In this document: piece by piece, positions 19,757 to 64,000 of the stretch
Numbering within the stretch: position 1 is the first letter of the stretch
Layout: each line of letters begins with the position of its first letter
Assembly: GCF_009914755.1 (NCBI RefSeq)
Contig: NC_060927.1
From: the human T2T-CHM13v2.0 reference genome, Homo sapiens
Direction: 5' to 3' (one strand)
DNA: 64,000 bases
Made by a program: the position numbers and the translations under genes
Notes under the pieces: model-generated
Seen by the model: only the letters and a program-made list of their open reading frames with translations
What the model was told of the DNA's origin: nothing
The model's database searches: none

Positions 19757-20068
19757 TCACTTAAAAAATCATTAAATAAGAAGTATTAAAACTATAATCC
19801 AAGACAATTTTCTAGAAATAAAGGAAGACTTGAATTTACATACTGAAAGGGTCCACTGGGTACCAGTGAAAACCTGTAATGATCAACTTCAACACATATC
19901 CTTAGAAAACTAATAGACTTTAAAGGTAAAGAAAAAAATCCTCATGGTCACTGTACAAAAACCAAATACCTTATAATGGCAGGAGAGTTCAATTGTCATC
20001 AGACTTCTCAAAAAACAATATGAAGTAAGGGAATCATGAAAAGCATTTTTTTTAACTCAAAGAAATAA

Positions 20069-20385
<317 letters not shown>

Positions 20386-21858
20386 AGAAATAACATTTGA
20401 ATCCAAAATTTAAATACTATCAAGCAGCCCCCTGAAGCCTAAAGGCCATAAAAAATTTACAAAGTAAGCAGTTTTAAACATGCAAAATCTGCAACATAAG
20501 CCCTCCTTAAGGAATCAACCTATTCAAAGATGAACTTCATCCAAACAATAGACTAGTGGGAGGACTTGAGGAAAAAGACAGTGATCATTTATTATATTTA
20601 ATTATAGATCTAGAAAAGTTAGAGATGGGGTTGAAGAATAAGAAGATATGATACATGCTGTGTGTTATGAATGTATATTCTGAGAGTGCTATGATTTGGA
20701 CATGGTTTGTCCCCATGAAATCTCATGTTGAAATTTATTTATATATTTTTTTAATTTTCAATAGCTTTAGGGGTACAAGTAGTTTTTGTTACACAGATAA
20801 ATTTTATAGTGGTGAAATCTGAGCTTTTAGTGTACCCATCACCCAAATAGTGTACAGTGTACCCAACAGGTGATTTTTTAATCCCTTACCACCCTCCCCC
20901 TTTCTGAGTCTCCGATGTCCATTACAGCATTCTGTATGCTGTTATTTATCCACAAGGTTAGTCCCCCCTTGTGAGAACATATGGTACTTGGTTTTCTGTT
21001 CCTGAGTTACTTTACTTAGGATAATGATCCCCAGTTCTATCCAAGGAGCTGCGAAGACATTATTTCATTCTTTTTAAGGGTGAGTAGTATTCCACTGTGT
21101 CTATATGTTTACATCATATATATATAACATTTTCTTTATCCACTCATTGGTTTGATGGACTCTTAGGTTGATTCCGTATCTTTTCCATGGTGAATTCTAC
21201 TATGATAAACATACTAGTGCAGGTATCTTTTTGATATAATGACATATTTTCCTTTGGGCAGATATCAGTAGTGAGACTGCTGAACTGAATGGTAGATCTG
21301 TTAGTTCTTTGATAAATTTCCATACTGTTTTCCACAGAGGTTGAACTAATTTACATTCTCACCAACAGTGTATAAGTGTTCCCTGTCTGCGCCAACATCT
21401 ATTGTTTTTTGACTTCTTAATGGCCATTCTGACTAGGGCAAAGTGGTATCTTACTGCAGTTTTAATTTGCATTTCTGTGATGACTAGTGATGTTGAGCAT
21501 TTTTCATATGTTTGTTAGTCTTTTGTGTATCTTCTTTTGAGAAATGTCTGTTCATGTTGTTTGTCTACTTTTTAAGGGATTATTTATTTTCTTGCTAATT
21601 TCAGTTCCTTGTAGATTACGGACATTAGTCCTTTGTCAGATGTATAGTTTACAAATATTTTCTCCCATTCTGTAGGTTCTCTGTTTACTCTGCAGATTAT
21701 CTCTTTTGCTGTACAAAGCTTTTCAGTTTGAGTCCCATTTATTTATTTTTGTTGCATTTGCTCTGTCTCTTACTAATAAATTCTCTGCCTACGCCAATAT
21801 CCAGAATTTTTCCTAGGGCTTCTTCTAAAATTGTTATGGTTTCAGGTCTTACATTTGA

Positions 21859-22364
21859 CCCTTTTCCTGTTTTCAAAAAAAGGTGTGGCTTGCTGCCAGC
21901 GCTCATTTAATTTTACATAAACACGTTCTTTGAGGCTGAAGCAAATCTGACTGATAGTCAATGTGAAAATAAAATATAAAAACTGTTCTTGGAGTTATTT
22001 CTAAACAGAACTAACATTAGAATTGTCTGAATCATCAGAATAATCTATTTCAGAAAAACTGAATTCATGAAACTAATCCTTGGCCAACAACTTTTCATGA
22101 ACAATGTTAGCATCATGTGTAGGAATGCTGTTTTCTAAGATTTGACATTTTCAGTGGTTGAGATTTTATTTTGTAAGTGGAAATACCGCTACTAAAAATG
22201 GAGTGCTATAAATAGGATAATGTCTTTTGTTTCCAAAGTTGATATACTAGAGCAATGCAAAAATAATAATCATAGGGTGCTATTTTGTGGCAAATTTACT
22301 TTGGGGTAAATGATGCAGCCGCAAGTGCCACTGGCGAGTATTCTCAGAGCAAATGGGGAAAGGG
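21859..22364 (-). mobile_element. MER75 non-autonomous piggyBac DNA transposon inserted in the L1
   Basis: Terminal inverted repeats CCCTTTTCCTGTTT ... AAATGGGGAAAGGG; target TTGA (decayed TTAA) 21855-21858 and TTAA 22365-22368; splits the L1 sequence ACATTTAAGTCTTTAATCC. Confidence 0.88.
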
Positions 22365-22767
22365 TTAAGTCTTTAATCCATCTTGAGTAAATTTTTGTAG
22401 ACGGTGAGAGATAGGGAACCAGTTTCATTCTTCTGTGTATGGCTATCCAATTTTCCAGCACCACTGAATGAATAGGGTGTCCTTTCCCCCATTGTATGTT
22501 TCAGTCTGCTTTGTCAAAGATCAGTTGGTTGTAGTTATTTGGCTTTATATCTGGGTTCTCTATTCTGTTTCATTGGTATATGTGTCTATTTTTATACCAG
22601 TTGTCATACTGTGTTGATTACTGTAGCCTTGCAGTATAACTTAAAGATAGCTAATGTGATGCCCCCAGATTTCTTTTGTTTGCTCAGGACTGCTTTTGCT
22701 ATTCAGGATTTTTGGTTTTATTTGAATTTAGGATTTTCTTTTCTAATTCTGAGAAAAATGGTGTTTT

Positions 22768-22887
22768 TGGCAGGATATGATGGCACACACCTGTAGTTCC
22801 AGCTGCTTGGGAGGCTAAGGCAGGAGGCTGAGGCTGAAGTAAGCCAAGATTGCACAACTGCACTCCAGACTGGGTGACAGAGTAAGA
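22768..22887 (+). mobile_element. Alu right-arm fragment
   Basis: CACCTGTAGTTCCAGCT...CACTCCAGACTGGGTGACAGAG, with an internal deletion. Confidence 0.8.
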
Positions 22888-23040
22888 TGGAAAGGAAAGG
22901 GAAAGGGAAAGGGAAATGGAAGGAAGAAGAGATAGAGAAAGAGAGCGAGAGAGAGAGAGAAATAGAGAAAGAAAAAGAGAGAGAAAAAAAGAAAGAAAAA
23001 GGAAAAGAAAAGAAAGAAAAAGAAAGAAAGAAAGAAAGAA

Positions 23041-23119
<79 letters not shown>

Positions 23120-23130
23120 GAAGAAAGGTA
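22888..23130 (+). repeat. Compound polypurine microsatellite (GGAAA/GA/GAAA)n from an expanded Alu tail
   Basis: About 240 nt almost purely A/G, including a long perfect (GAAA)n run at ~23043-23118. Confidence 0.95.
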
Positions 23131-24420
23131 GGCAGGCATTGGTGGTATTTTGATAGGAACTCTACTGAATCTGTAGATTGTTTTGGGCAGTATGGTCATT
23201 TTCACAATATTGATTCTTTTAATTCATGAACATAGGAGGTTTTCTATTTGTTTGTATCATCTATGGTTTCTTTCATCAGTGTTTTGCAGTTCTATGTGTA
23301 GAGATCTTTCACCTCTTTGGTTAAGTATATTCCTAGGGTTTTTTTTTTTTCCTTTTTTTGCAACAATTGTAAATGGGACTGAGTTCTTGATTTGATTCTG
23401 CTTGGTCATTATTGGTATATAGCAGTAGTACTGATGTGTGTATGGTGATTTTGTAACCTGACACTTTACAGATTCATTTATCCAATCTAGGAGATTTTGG
23501 AGGAGTCTTTAGAATTTTCAAGGTATAAGATCACATCATCAGCAAACAGAGATAGCTTGATTTCTCTTTTCTAACTTAGATGCCCTTTATTTCTTCTCTT
23601 GCCTGACTGTTCTAGCTAGAACTTCCAGTACTACGTTGAATAAAAGTGGCAGAAGTGGGCATTCTTGTCTTGTTCCAGTTCTTAGGAAGAATGCTTTCAG
23701 TTTTTCCTCATTCAGTATGTTGGCTGTGAGTTTGTCATATATGGCTTTTATTATTTTAAGGTATGTTCTTTCTGTGCCTAGTTTGTTGAGGAGTTTTATC
23801 ATGAAGGGATGCTCAATTTTATCAAATGCTTTTTCTTCATCTACTGAAATGATTTTTTTTTGTTTTTAATTATATTTATGTGGTGAATCACATTTGTTGA
23901 TTTGCATATGTCAAATCATCCTTGCATTCCTGGTATGAAACCCACTTGATGCTGAATTATCTTGTTGATATACTGCTGAATCTGGTTTGCTAGAATTTTG
24001 TTGAGGATTTTTGCACCTATGTTCATTAGGAATATTGGTCTGCAGTTTTCCTTGTTTGTTGTGTCTTTTCCTGGCTTTGGTATTAGGGTGATACTGGGTT
24101 CATAGAAAGAATTAGGGAGGATTCCCTCTTTCTCCATCTTTTAGAATAGTTTCAGTAGAATTGGCATCAGTTCTTCTTTCCATGTCTGGTAAAATTCAGC
24201 TGTGAATCCATCTGGTCCTGGGCATTCGTTGTTGTTGTTGTTGTCGTTGGGAGATTTTTTATTACTGATTCAATCTCACTACTTATTACTTGGTCCATTC
24301 AGGATTTCTGTTTCTTCCTGATTCAAATTTGTGGGATTGTGTGTTTCTAGGAATTTATCCATTTCCTCTAGACTTTCTAGTTTGTGTGCACAGACATATT
24401 CACAGTAGTCTTAGATCATT

Positions 24421-24495
24421 TTTTCCAGTGTTCTACACATTCAGAGAAACTTTCTAATAATAAACTACAGAAGTGATCTCTGAAAGTATAGTCTT
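24421..24495 (-). pseudogene. U3 snoRNA 5' fragment (nt ~1-75), 5' part of a U3-L1 chimera
   Basis: Reverse complement AAGACTATACTTTCAGAGATCACTTCTGTAGTTTATTATTAGAAAGTTTCTCTGAATGTGTAGAACACTGGAAAA versus recalled U3 AAGACTATACTTTCAGGGATCATTTCTATAGTGTGTTACTAGAGAAGTTTCTCTGAACGTGTAGAGCACCGAAAA; first 16 nt identical, roughly 85% overall by eye. Confidence 0.9.
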
Positions 24496-26889
24496 CATGT
24501 TGAAGTTTAACTGCCAGCATGACAGTATTGGAAAGTGGGGCCTAATGGGAGTTGTTTGGGTCATGGGGCCAGATCTCTTATAAATTGATTAATGCCATCT
24601 CACGGGAGTGAGTTCTCACTCTAACAGGACTGGATTAGTTACCATGACAGTGGGTTGTTATAAAGCAAGTCAGCCTCCTCGGTCCCCTCTCTCTCTGCAC
24701 AAGCCCCTTTCCCTTCCAGTTTCCTCCATGAGTTGAAGCAGCACAAAACCTTTATCAGATGAGCTGTCCACTCTTGCACTTTCCAGCCACCAGAATTATG
24801 AACCAAATAAACCTCTTTTCTTTATAAAACATCCAGCTTCAGTTATTCTGTCGTAGCCACACTAAACAGAATAAAACTGAGGAAACTGGGTACAGAAGGA
24901 AGGGGAAAGAAGTCTAGTTCATTGAATGTTTTATAGGCAATAGGTAGAAAATAAAGAATACCATTAAAAATGGACAAATCGGATAGTAAATGATTAAGAC
25001 AATAGGGACCACAGGCATTTTAAAAAGTATAAATTGAAAAGCAGCACCTAGAACAAAACTATAAACCTTACCAAACACGAAAAGACACTTAAAAAAAACC
25101 AGAAGGACAGAAAACAATGTAGAAAAAATGAACACAACAAATATAATATACATAACTTTGAAAGATATGGAAGAGTTAAAATGTATCAGTTATAAATAAA
25201 TGCAAATAGATTTAACTTAGACATTAAAAATATTTGCAATTTGGCTCATAAAGACCCAAAAATATGCAATATTCAAGAAAGACACCCAAAACAAAGTGAT
25301 TCAGAAAGGCTAAAAATAAAGTGATGGGCACAGACAGACACAGCAGGATAATGAAAACAATAAGGAATTAATAGGAGGGTATGTGTGTGATACTGGTGTC
25401 AAACAAAGGAGAATTCAAACTAAAAAGTAATATATGATGGGTAGGAAACCTTTAAATGTGAGAAGTCATAATTTAAAATGGAGATATTAGAATTATGAAT
25501 ATCTAGTCGACACAGCACAGCAACTTTATAAAAGCAAAACCTCCAGGAGACAGCAAAGAAAGAGAAAGAACCACACCAAATAGGAGATCAAACAGATAAA
25601 ATAAGTATATAGAAGACAGAAACAGCAAAATAAAGACAGATTTTTAAATGCATATCAAACTTTTTACAGTAGAGAGTAAACCTTCTCAAGTATATATAGA
25701 ATATTCACAAAAAAACTGGTCATACATTAGCTTATAAAGTAGAAATTTTACAATGCTCTCTGACTATAATGCAATAGAATTATACATTATTAGCAATAAC
25801 AAAGAAAGGTCCTTCCAATTAGAAATAAACCTGTTAAACAATTATTGGGTAAAAGAAAAACATAAACCAAAGTTTAAAAATTCCTAAAAAATGATATAAT
25901 TGACCCATATTAATCAGTGATATCATTCTTAAGGATGTGATCAAAGTAAAATTCATAGGCTTAGATATTTTTATCAATAAAAATGAAAGAAAAAGTGAAT
26001 TAAATGCCTAGCTAAAACTAGCAGTTAACAAAGTAAAAAAAAAATTTTAAATCATGAAAATAGAGATTAATAATGTAGACAACAGAAAAACAATAGTTCT
26101 AATAAATCAAGATTCATTTTTTGGAAAAATTTAACAGAATAGGCATGCCCCTAGCTAATTTAATGAAAAAAGAGGGTGGGAAGCATAAATATGTAAAATA
26201 AGAAATGACAGGAGGTAAATAACTATTGGAAAAACACTGAAATAACCATGTTAATAACTGTAAGATTCTATTTTACAGACATCATGGCCAATATATTAGA
26301 TCACCTAGGTGAATGGGTAATTTACCAGGCAAGTACCGTTTATTACAATTGGACCCATTAGAGGTAGAAAGCTCAAACAGACCAATTTCCTGAGAAGAAA
26401 CAGAGAACGTCATTAAGGAAGCATCCTATCAAAAACGCACCAGGCTAAAATAGCTTCACAGAGTGAAACCTTCAAAAACTAGATTGTTCAAATTCTCTGT
26501 AAATTTTTCCAGAGAACTAAAAAGAAAGGAAAACTTCATATTTCTTTTTATTTGTATGTATAGTATCAATACCTAAGCCTGATAAAGAAAATGCAAAGTA
26601 AATTACAAATTAATATCACACCAATATTTATGCAAAAATACTAATAAAATATTAGGAAACATAATCCAATGCCACATTAAAAGAATGTCACATCATAACC
26701 AAGAGATACTTATTCCAACAATGCACAGTTATTTCAATATTAGGGAACCCATTAATATAATACACTATACCAATAGATTTAGGTAGAAAAACCATATCAT
26801 TACCTCCATAGATGCTAAAAAAGCTTTTCAACAAAATTCAATAGTCTTTCTTGATAACAACACTTAATGGAAATCAGTGGATACTTCCT

Positions 26890-60795: not shown

Positions 60796-60901
60796 GTGCT
60801 CACTTCGGTGGCACATATACTAAAATTGGAACAATACAGAGATGATTAGCATGGCCCCTGCACAAGGATGGCACGCAAATTTGTAAGCATTCCATATTTT
60901 T
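60796..60901 (+). pseudogene. U6 snRNA retropseudogene (full length), 5' part of a U6-L1 chimera
   Basis: GTGCTCACTTCGGTGGCACATATACTAAAATTGGAACAATACAGAGATGATTAGCATGGCCCCTGCACAAGGATGGCACGCAAATTTGTAAGCATTCCATATTTTT matches U6 with about 10 differences, several of them CpG transitions. Confidence 0.96.

Positions 60902-64000
<3,099 letters not shown>

What the first reader, a model, noticed from the sequence alone, without database searches (positions are those of the whole stretch)
20724..24509. Hidden U3 snoRNA(1-75)-LINE-1 chimeric retrocopy with intact TSDs inside DCBLD2 intron 2
Seen: the 75 nt between the 5'-truncated end of a minus-strand L1 and its TSD are not L1. Their reverse complement is the exact 5' end of U3 snoRNA (AAGACTATACTTTCAG...), ending at the GAAAA near the hinge. 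The junction with L1 ORF2 lies in an A-run, and a 14-bp TSD (CATGTTGAA(A/G)TTTA) encloses both parts, so they inserted as one event. Established: U3 pseudogenes truncated near nt 70-75 arise from self-primed reverse transcription, and small-RNA/L1 chimeras form during L1 retrotransposition, with U3 versions much rarer than U6. Inference: template switching or capture of a self-primed U3 cDNA at the A-microhomology. The captured segment is the pre-rRNA-pairing 5' domain, in sense orientation in the DCBLD2 pre-mRNA.
Basis: partly seen in the sequence, partly recalled or inferred. Interest (0 to 1): 0.8.

Follow-up and report, generated by a model that had tools for sequence, protein, structure and literature searches.

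The report
Known U3–LINE-1 chimeric retrocopy
The first 75 bases of U3 snoRNA are fused to a truncated LINE-1 and were pasted into an old LTR in a DCBLD2 intron as one event, but this is an ordinary, dead example of a well-known kind of insertion and this very locus is already in a published catalogue.

Summary
On the minus strand, 24495-24421 is U3 snoRNA nt 1-75 (Rfam U3 44.3 bits, cut-off 34; 10 substitutions and 1 deletion against a real U3 gene). It joins directly to a 5'-truncated L1 with reverse-transcriptase remnants and an A-rich tail. A 14-bp duplication (13 of 14 identical) encloses both parts.

I added two checks:
- **Target site.** Twenty of 29 paralogous MST-type LTR copies show the two flanks as one continuous LTR holding the 14-mer once. 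The LTR is therefore the target, and everything between the copies went in together.
- **Junction.** Eight of 10 related L1 copies carry AAAA at the junction, so U3 nt 72-75 and L1 share 3-4 nt of microhomology.

It is not hidden or new. RefSeq annotates the U3 piece as a pseudogene. Cell Genomics 2026 (PMC13174262) Table S3 lists this locus as L1PB3 + U3:1-75. In its Table S2, 16 of 22 U3/L1 chimeras have U3 ending at nt 68-76.

The copy lacks the whole 3' snoRNP domain, and nothing suggests a function. How the two RNAs were joined (template switch, RNA ligation or cDNA capture) cannot be settled from sequence. Verdict: real, single-event chimera, already known. Interest is low.

The parts
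20687..20723 (+). Left part of the target LTR (MST-type; the neighbouring piece is named MSTB2 in the published table), up to the TSD
   Evidence: In 20 of 22 paralogous LTR copies that match both flanks, the left-flank alignment starts at query position 43-50, about window 20687.
20724..20737 (-). TSD copy at the 3' (tail) side of the insertion; minus strand TAAATTTCAACATG
   Evidence: Present once in paralogous LTR copies.
20738..20758 (-). Degenerate A-rich tail of the L1
   Evidence: Read directly (minus strand gaaaattaaaaaaatatataaa).
20759..22777 (-). L1 body, 3' segment (end of ORF2 and 3' UTR); annotated L1PB3 in the published table
   Evidence: L1 ORF2-like frames; table row. The subfamily name comes from the table and was not tested here.
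22778..23131 (+). Later insertion inside the L1: 5'-truncated Alu fragment followed by an (AAAG)n tail
   Evidence: Tandem repeats at 22889-23127. The Alu-like sequence was read and named from recall. Boundaries are approximate.
23132..24420 (-). L1 body, 5' segment with reverse-transcriptase remnants. Its 5' end lies about 1.2 kb into ORF2.
   Evidence: RVT_1 hits, L1 relatives, and position relative to the ORF2 start of the L1 copy at 60933.
24421..24424 (-). AAAA shared by U3 nt 72-75 and L1: the crossover lies within it
   Evidence: Eight of 10 related L1 copies have AAAA in this column, and the U3 gene has GAAAAC.
24421..24495 (-). U3 snoRNA nt 1-75 (5' domain only), 10 substitutions and 1 deletion
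   Evidence: Rfam RF00012, 44.3 bits; alignment to the U3 gene.
24496..24509 (-). TSD copy at the 5' side; minus strand TAAACTTCAACATG, preceded by T, so the nick context is TT/AAAC or T/TAAAC
24510..24873 (+). Right part of the same target LTR (MSTB2:41-456 in the published table). The end coordinate is converted from hg38 and is approximate.

Best explanation
This is a U3(1-75)/L1 chimeric retrocopy made in one L1 target-primed reverse transcription event. Shown: an L1-type nick at TT/AAAC in an older MST-type LTR; an L1 copy from its A-tail up to about 1.2 kb into ORF2; a direct join to U3 nt 75-1, running exactly to the U3 5' end; and one 14-bp target-site duplication around the whole. Inferred: the join was made by the L1 reverse transcriptase leaving the L1 RNA and continuing on U3 snoRNA. 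The new cDNA end (TTTT) would have paired with the AAAA at U3 nt 72-75. That is the last unpaired stretch before the terminal stem that pairs U3 model positions 76-80 with the RNA's 3' end. I put the single-event chimera at about 0.95 and the template-switch route at about 0.6. The insertion is old and decayed, with a later Alu inside it, and it has no snoRNA function.
For: The U3 identity and extent rest. The L1 identity rests. There is no A-tail and no second duplication between U3 and L1. The TSD is 13 of 14 identical, against 15 of 20000 random pairs in the control. Of 29 paralogous LTR copies, 22 match both flanks and 20 are collinear with a projected overlap of 14-15 nt (18 of them exactly 14). 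So the flanks were contiguous and the 14-mer was single before insertion. Eight of 10 L1 relatives have AAAA at the junction column, and an independent L1 copy in the window aligns into the A-run. Rfam's consensus structure pairs model positions 76-80 with 215-219, so nt 75 is the first unpaired base 5' of the terminal stem. U3 starts at its nt 1, as expected for run-off at the template's 5' end. The published comparative alignment scored the insertion as contemporaneous (found_by_msa_prediction = 1).
Against: Sequence alone cannot separate a template switch from RNA joining before reverse transcription or from capture of a ready-made U3 cDNA. The microhomology is only 3-4 nt of A in an A-rich element and could be chance. 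In the seven L1-fused copies of my sample (five by BLAST, two by eye), the U3 ends are at 69, 70, 71, 72, 72, 76 and 76, and four of them stop short of the A-run. The break therefore seems to be set by U3 itself rather than by pairing with L1. The authors of the catalogue favour a cleaved U3 fragment. I had no outgroup genomes, so co-insertion rests on the TSD, the paralogue test and the published flag. That published row also lumps the MSTB2 piece into the non-L1 part.
Confidence: 0.6

Rival explanations
1. Same single-event chimera, but the two RNAs were joined before reverse transcription. A U3 5' fragment ending near nt 75 was ligated to a broken L1 RNA, and the hybrid RNA was then copied by the L1 machinery.
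For: [quoted passage not shown] U3 ends cluster at 68-76 whatever the L1 breakpoint: 16 of 22 rows and 18 of 18 truncated copies in my sample.
Against: Ligation predicts no microhomology, yet AAAA is shared here. It also needs an L1 RNA broken inside ORF2 that still recruits the L1 proteins. No such U3 fragment was examined here.
Confidence: 0.2
2. Same single-event insertion, but the U3 part was a ready-made self-primed cDNA. The U3 3' end folded onto nt 76-80 and was extended to nt 1. The product was then captured at the 5' end of the L1 insertion by end joining at the A-run.
For: Rfam's structure puts the U3 3' end on model positions 76-80, next to the break. Tail-less truncated U3 copies with the duplication directly at nt 69 or 77 exist: L039 and L036, 2 of 18 truncated copies. 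That is the class attributed to self-priming (Bernstein 1983, recalled, not read).
Against: It needs more steps: removing the attached U3 RNA and joining two cDNAs in the right orientation. The strong sense bias of U3/L1 chimeras (95.5%) is simpler under continuous synthesis.
Confidence: 0.12
3. Two separate insertions that happen to abut: a truncated U3 pseudogene and an L1.
For: Stand-alone truncated U3 copies are common (11 of 18 truncated copies are not fused to an L1 body).
Against: Only one duplication exists and it encloses both parts. The sequence after the L1 tail repeats the LTR upstream of U3 nt 1, not the end of U3. No tail or duplication lies at the U3/L1 junction.
Confidence: 0.03

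Closest known systems
U3/LINE-1 chimeric insertions (Buzdin 2003 class; catalogue in Cell Genomics 2026, PMC13174262, Tables S2 and S3)
   Same: U3 from nt 1, in sense, 3'-truncated near nt 70-76, fused directly to a 5'-truncated L1 inside one TSD. Sixteen of 22 catalogued rows have U3 ending at 68-76. This locus is itself a row of Table S3 (L1PB3, U3:1-75).
   Different: Nothing essential. The published row gives no TSD and lists the neighbouring MSTB2 piece with the non-L1 part; here that piece is shown to be the split target LTR. The L1 family (L1PB3) is among the older ones in the list.
U6/LINE-1 chimeras
   Same: A small nuclear RNA in sense at the 5' end of a truncated L1, inserted in one event. 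There is one in this same window at 60796-60901 plus L1.
   Different: U6 is taken whole (1-107), joined at its 3' end. U3 is taken only up to an internal point near nt 75.
Stand-alone truncated U3 pseudogenes (the self-priming class, Bernstein, Mount and Weiner 1983; recalled)
   Same: The same U3 segment, nt 1 to about 69-77 (18 of 18 truncated copies).
   Different: Those have the duplication directly at the U3 end or after a short A-tail (L036, L039, L045, L051). Here 3.7 kb of L1 lies between U3 and the second TSD copy.

Membership tests
Small-RNA/L1 chimeric retrocopy, U3 subclass | The 5' part is a copy of the small RNA starting at its first nucleotide | tested here: met
   U3 nt 1 abuts the TSD. 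One A is ambiguous between the TSD and U3 nt 1.
Small-RNA/L1 chimeric retrocopy, U3 subclass | The 3' part is a 5'-truncated L1 in the same orientation, ending in an A-rich tail | tested here: met
   RVT_1 hits on the minus strand, L1 relatives at 81-88% identity, tail at 20758-20738.
Small-RNA/L1 chimeric retrocopy, U3 subclass | Direct junction, with no tail or duplication between the parts | tested here: met
   Alignment with the U3 gene and 10 L1 copies; the parts meet in a shared AAAA.
Small-RNA/L1 chimeric retrocopy, U3 subclass | One target-site duplication enclosing both parts; the target is intact without them | tested here: met
   14 bp, 13 of 14 identical. Twenty of 29 paralogous LTRs show the flanks contiguous with one copy of the 14-mer. 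This is a paralogue proxy, not the orthologous empty site.
Small-RNA/L1 chimeric retrocopy, U3 subclass | L1 endonuclease-type target (TT/AAAA-like) | tested here: met
   TT/AAAC, or T/TAAAC if the TSD is 14 bp. That is one base off the consensus, which I give from recall.
Small-RNA/L1 chimeric retrocopy, U3 subclass | Both parts appear together in species comparison | not testable with these tools
   No primate genomes are held. The published table flags found_by_msa_prediction = 1 for this locus.
Small-RNA/L1 chimeric retrocopy, U3 subclass | U3 3'-truncated near nt 70-76 | tested here: met
   It ends at nt 75. Sixteen of 22 catalogue rows end at 68-76.
Functional U3 snoRNA gene | Complete 3' domain closed by the terminal stem (which carries the snoRNP boxes, by recall) | tested here: not met
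   In the Rfam alignment the 132 positions collapsed between model 82 and 215 are represented by only 16 nt, which are L1, and the terminal stem is unpaired. No homology to the U3 gene after nt 75.
Stand-alone self-primed truncated U3 pseudogene | Duplication directly flanks the U3 1-~74 segment | tested here: not met
   The second TSD copy lies 3.7 kb away, beyond the L1.

The most novel reading that the evidence does not exclude
The breakpoint at U3 nt 69-77 is the same in L1-fused copies, in copies followed only by an A-tail, and in tail-less copies. It sits at the foot of the stem that pairs the U3 3' end with nt 76-80. So all three classes may come from one L1-driven pathway with a single U3 intermediate. 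In that case the classic 'self-primed' U3 pseudogenes and the U3/L1 chimeras would be products of the same reaction, and this locus, with its AAAA overlap, would show the entry point.
Probability: 0.3. Interest if true: 0.35.

Novelty: already known. Interest (0 to 1): 0.12.

Why it matters
It matters little. It is a correct reading of a fossil insertion that documents L1 reverse transcriptase joining two RNAs. The class has been described since 2003, and this locus is already tabulated. The small additions here are the TSD and nick site, the shared AAAA at the junction, and the finding that the MSTB2 piece listed beside it in the catalogue is the split target rather than part of the insertion. 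The open general question is why U3 is always taken only up to about nt 70-76. One locus cannot answer it.

Tried and rejected
- **Function of the sense-oriented U3 5' domain in the DCBLD2 pre-mRNA.** Rejected as unsupported. The copy has no 3' domain and has 10 substitutions and 1 deletion in 75 nt, and no test was possible.
- **Older literature.** Buzdin 2003 and Garcia-Perez 2007 are not held, by DOI or by PMC id. Bernstein 1983 was not looked for, because I took it not to be in PubMed Central. What I say about these three papers is recalled, or taken from how Doucet 2015 and PMC13174262 cite them.
- **Loci for the 40 L1 matches.** I fetched 10 short stretches instead. All 10 were chosen because their match reached query position 1 or 2, so they are not a random sample of L1 copies.
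- **Dating.** No outgroup genomes and no L1 consensus were available. I only note about 15% divergence of the U3 part and 81-88% identity of the L1 part to other copies.
- **Pfam on four further L1-like frames.** No hit. They lie outside the RT domain.
Full report
**What is there**

On the minus strand the order is: LTR sequence, TAAACTTCAACATG (24509-24496), then AAGACTATACTTTCAG....

Rfam's U3 model (RF00012) matches 24398-24495 on the minus strand at 44.3 bits, against a gathering score of 34. The E-value is 1.2e-7 for the 5.5-kb stretch and 1.4e-6 for the whole window.

The window's own genome can be searched. Its best U3 matches are a cluster on contig C17 at 199 bits. I took one of these, L001:1501-1717, as the real gene. 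Aligned to it, the window matches U3 nt 1 to 75 (24495-24421) with 10 substitutions and one deleted base, and homology stops there. The last 23 nt of the Rfam span, which is also RefSeq's LOC124906384 span, come from fitting the whole model. They are L1.

**The L1**

- Downstream of nt 75 the minus strand carries broken L1 ORF2 frames.
- Two of them hit Pfam RVT_1: 23587-23865 (E 3.3e-10) and 23916-24140 (E 2.5e-5, below Pfam's cut-off). Four other frames gave no hit.
- The 171 nt beside the junction match L1 copies all over the genome at 81-88% identity (3968 candidates, 40 scored).
- Against the L1 copy at the far end of the window, the junction falls about 1210 nt after that copy's ORF2 start.
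- The body ends in a degenerate A-rich tail at 20758-20738.
- A 5'-truncated Alu fragment with an (AAAG)n tail sits inside the L1 at about 22778-23131 as a later insertion.

**The duplication and the target**

The tail is followed by TAAATTTCAACATG (20737-20724), which is 13 of 14 identical to the copy upstream of U3. In a control with 20000 random position pairs at the same spacing, allowing +-10 nt at each side, 15 gave a match that good.

A stronger test used paralogues. I searched the genome with the 265 nt to the right of the insertion and obtained 29 other copies of this LTR family with their flanks. I then aligned the window's left and right flanks to them.
- Twenty-two of the 29 match both flanks at E <= 1e-3.
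- In 20 of those 22 the two matches are collinear and overlap by 14-15 nt. In 18 the overlap is exactly 14.
- The two exceptions gave projected overlaps of 33 and 6, from partial alignments.
- Seven copies matched only the right flank.

The flanks are therefore one LTR that begins near 20687, and the 14-mer was single before the insertion. Everything from 20738 to 24495 went in between its two copies. The base before the upstream copy is T, which gives TT/AAAC (13-bp TSD) or T/TAAAC (14-bp TSD). Both are close to the L1 endonuclease preference as I recall it.

**One event or two**

No tail, no second duplication and no filler lie between U3 and L1. The sequence after the L1 tail repeats the LTR upstream of U3 nt 1, not the end of U3. 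Two independent insertions would have left a different pattern. I put a single event at about 0.95. I could not test the orthologous empty site because no primate genomes are held.

**The junction**

I aligned the window with ten L1 copies whose match reached the junction, and with the U3 gene.
- Eight of the ten L1 copies read AAAA in the column where the window reads AAAAAA (24424-24419). The other two read AGAA and AACC.
- U3 reads GAAAAC at nt 71-76.
- So 3-4 nt (24421-24424) belong to both parents and the crossover lies within them.

Rfam's consensus structure pairs model positions 76-80 with the last five positions, 215-219. U3 nt 75 is therefore the first unpaired base 5' of the stem that holds the RNA's own 3' end.

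**How it most likely formed**

Shown: an L1-type target, an L1 copy from its tail inward, a switch to U3 at nt 75, a copy running to U3 nt 1, and one TSD.

Inferred: the L1 reverse transcriptase left the L1 RNA and continued on U3, with the cDNA end pairing to the A-run (about 0.6).

Rivals that give the same product:
- ligation of a U3 5' fragment to a broken L1 RNA before reverse transcription (about 0.2). The catalogue's authors favour a cleaved fragment.
- capture of a self-primed U3 cDNA (about 0.12).

One result counts against a role for microhomology. In a sample of 25 other U3 5'-part matches (L036-L060, the best-scoring non-gene loci, so biased to young copies), 7 are full length and 18 end at nt 69-77. 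Five of the 18 run straight into L1 by BLAST against this window's L1. Two more, L043 and L055, look like L1 to me and seem to correspond to catalogue rows. Their U3 ends are 69, 70, 71, 72, 72, 76 and 76, and four of them stop short of the A-run. Of the rest, L036 and L039 have the duplication directly at the U3 end, and L045 and L051 have a short A-tail and then the duplication. The others are unclear. The break therefore looks like a property of U3, not of its partner.

**What is known**

- Doucet et al. 2015 (PMC4476161; one passage read) note that U3 chimeras are 3'-truncated, citing Buzdin 2003.
- 'Comparative genomics reveals LINE-1 recombination with diverse RNAs' (Cell Genomics 2026, PMC13174262; also bioRxiv 10.1101/2025.02.02.635956). 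I read passages and parts of supplementary files 1 and 2.
- It catalogues 253 chimeras: 70.9% U6, 10.5% 5S rRNA and 8.5% U3. U3 is in sense in 95.5% and is 'recurrently truncated'.
- Its Table S2 U3 sheet has 22 rows, and in 16 of them U3 ends at nt 68-76.
- Its Table S3 U3 sheet has 3 more rows. The third is this locus: hg38 chr3:98868463-98872106 minus, L1PB3; U3:1-75 at chr3:98872107-98872180 minus; found_by_msa_prediction = 1. These coordinates agree within a few bases with those I predicted from the gene table.
- That row has no TSD columns, and it lists MSTB2:41-456 together with U3 as the non-L1 part. The paralogue test shows that piece is the target, not cargo.
- RefSeq also annotates the U3 piece as a pseudogene (hub table).

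**Function**

None is indicated. The copy lacks the whole 3' domain, which by recall carries the boxes that bind the snoRNP proteins, and it has diverged by about 15%. Its sense orientation in the DCBLD2 intron is correct but carries no evidence of use.

**Verdict**

The mechanism of joining is unresolved. Novelty: already known. Interest: 0.12.

Noticed in passing
window 60796-60901 (+) and onward to at least 61460: A full-length U6 copy (Rfam U6, 99.8 bits) is followed directly by L1 sequence, with the ORF2 start at about 60933. The window therefore holds a second small-RNA/L1 chimera. It is listed in Table S2 of PMC13174262 as U6:1-107 + L1PA11 (hg38 chr3:98908459-98912054).
   Followed up: partly
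window 22778-23131: A 5'-truncated Alu fragment on the plus strand with a roughly 200-bp (AAAG)n/(AG)n tail lies inside the L1. It explains part of the gap between the two L1PB3 fragments in the published row. The rest of that gap (about 21657-22777) still reads as L1 ORF2 frames, so the gap is probably an annotation split.
   Followed up: partly
loci L045, L051 (also L046, L048, L049, L057): Several truncated U3 copies (ending at nt 69-74) are followed by a few odd bases and an A-tail, then the duplication. They look like L1-made copies in which the switch to U3 came straight from a poly(A) tail. In L046 a full Alu follows the A-rich stretch inside the duplication.
   Followed up: partly
PMC13174262 Table S3, U3 sheet, row for this locus: The catalogue lists MSTB2:41-456 together with U3 as the non-L1 part of the chimeric insertion. 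The first roughly 50 nt of that LTR lie on the other side of the insertion (window 20687-20737), so the LTR is the split target.
   Followed up: yes
window 20102-20384 (-): Sub-threshold Metazoa_SRP, mir-1268 and mir-3135 hits just left of the insertion are what an Alu gives. This fits NCBI's masked stretch at 20035-20403.
   Followed up: no
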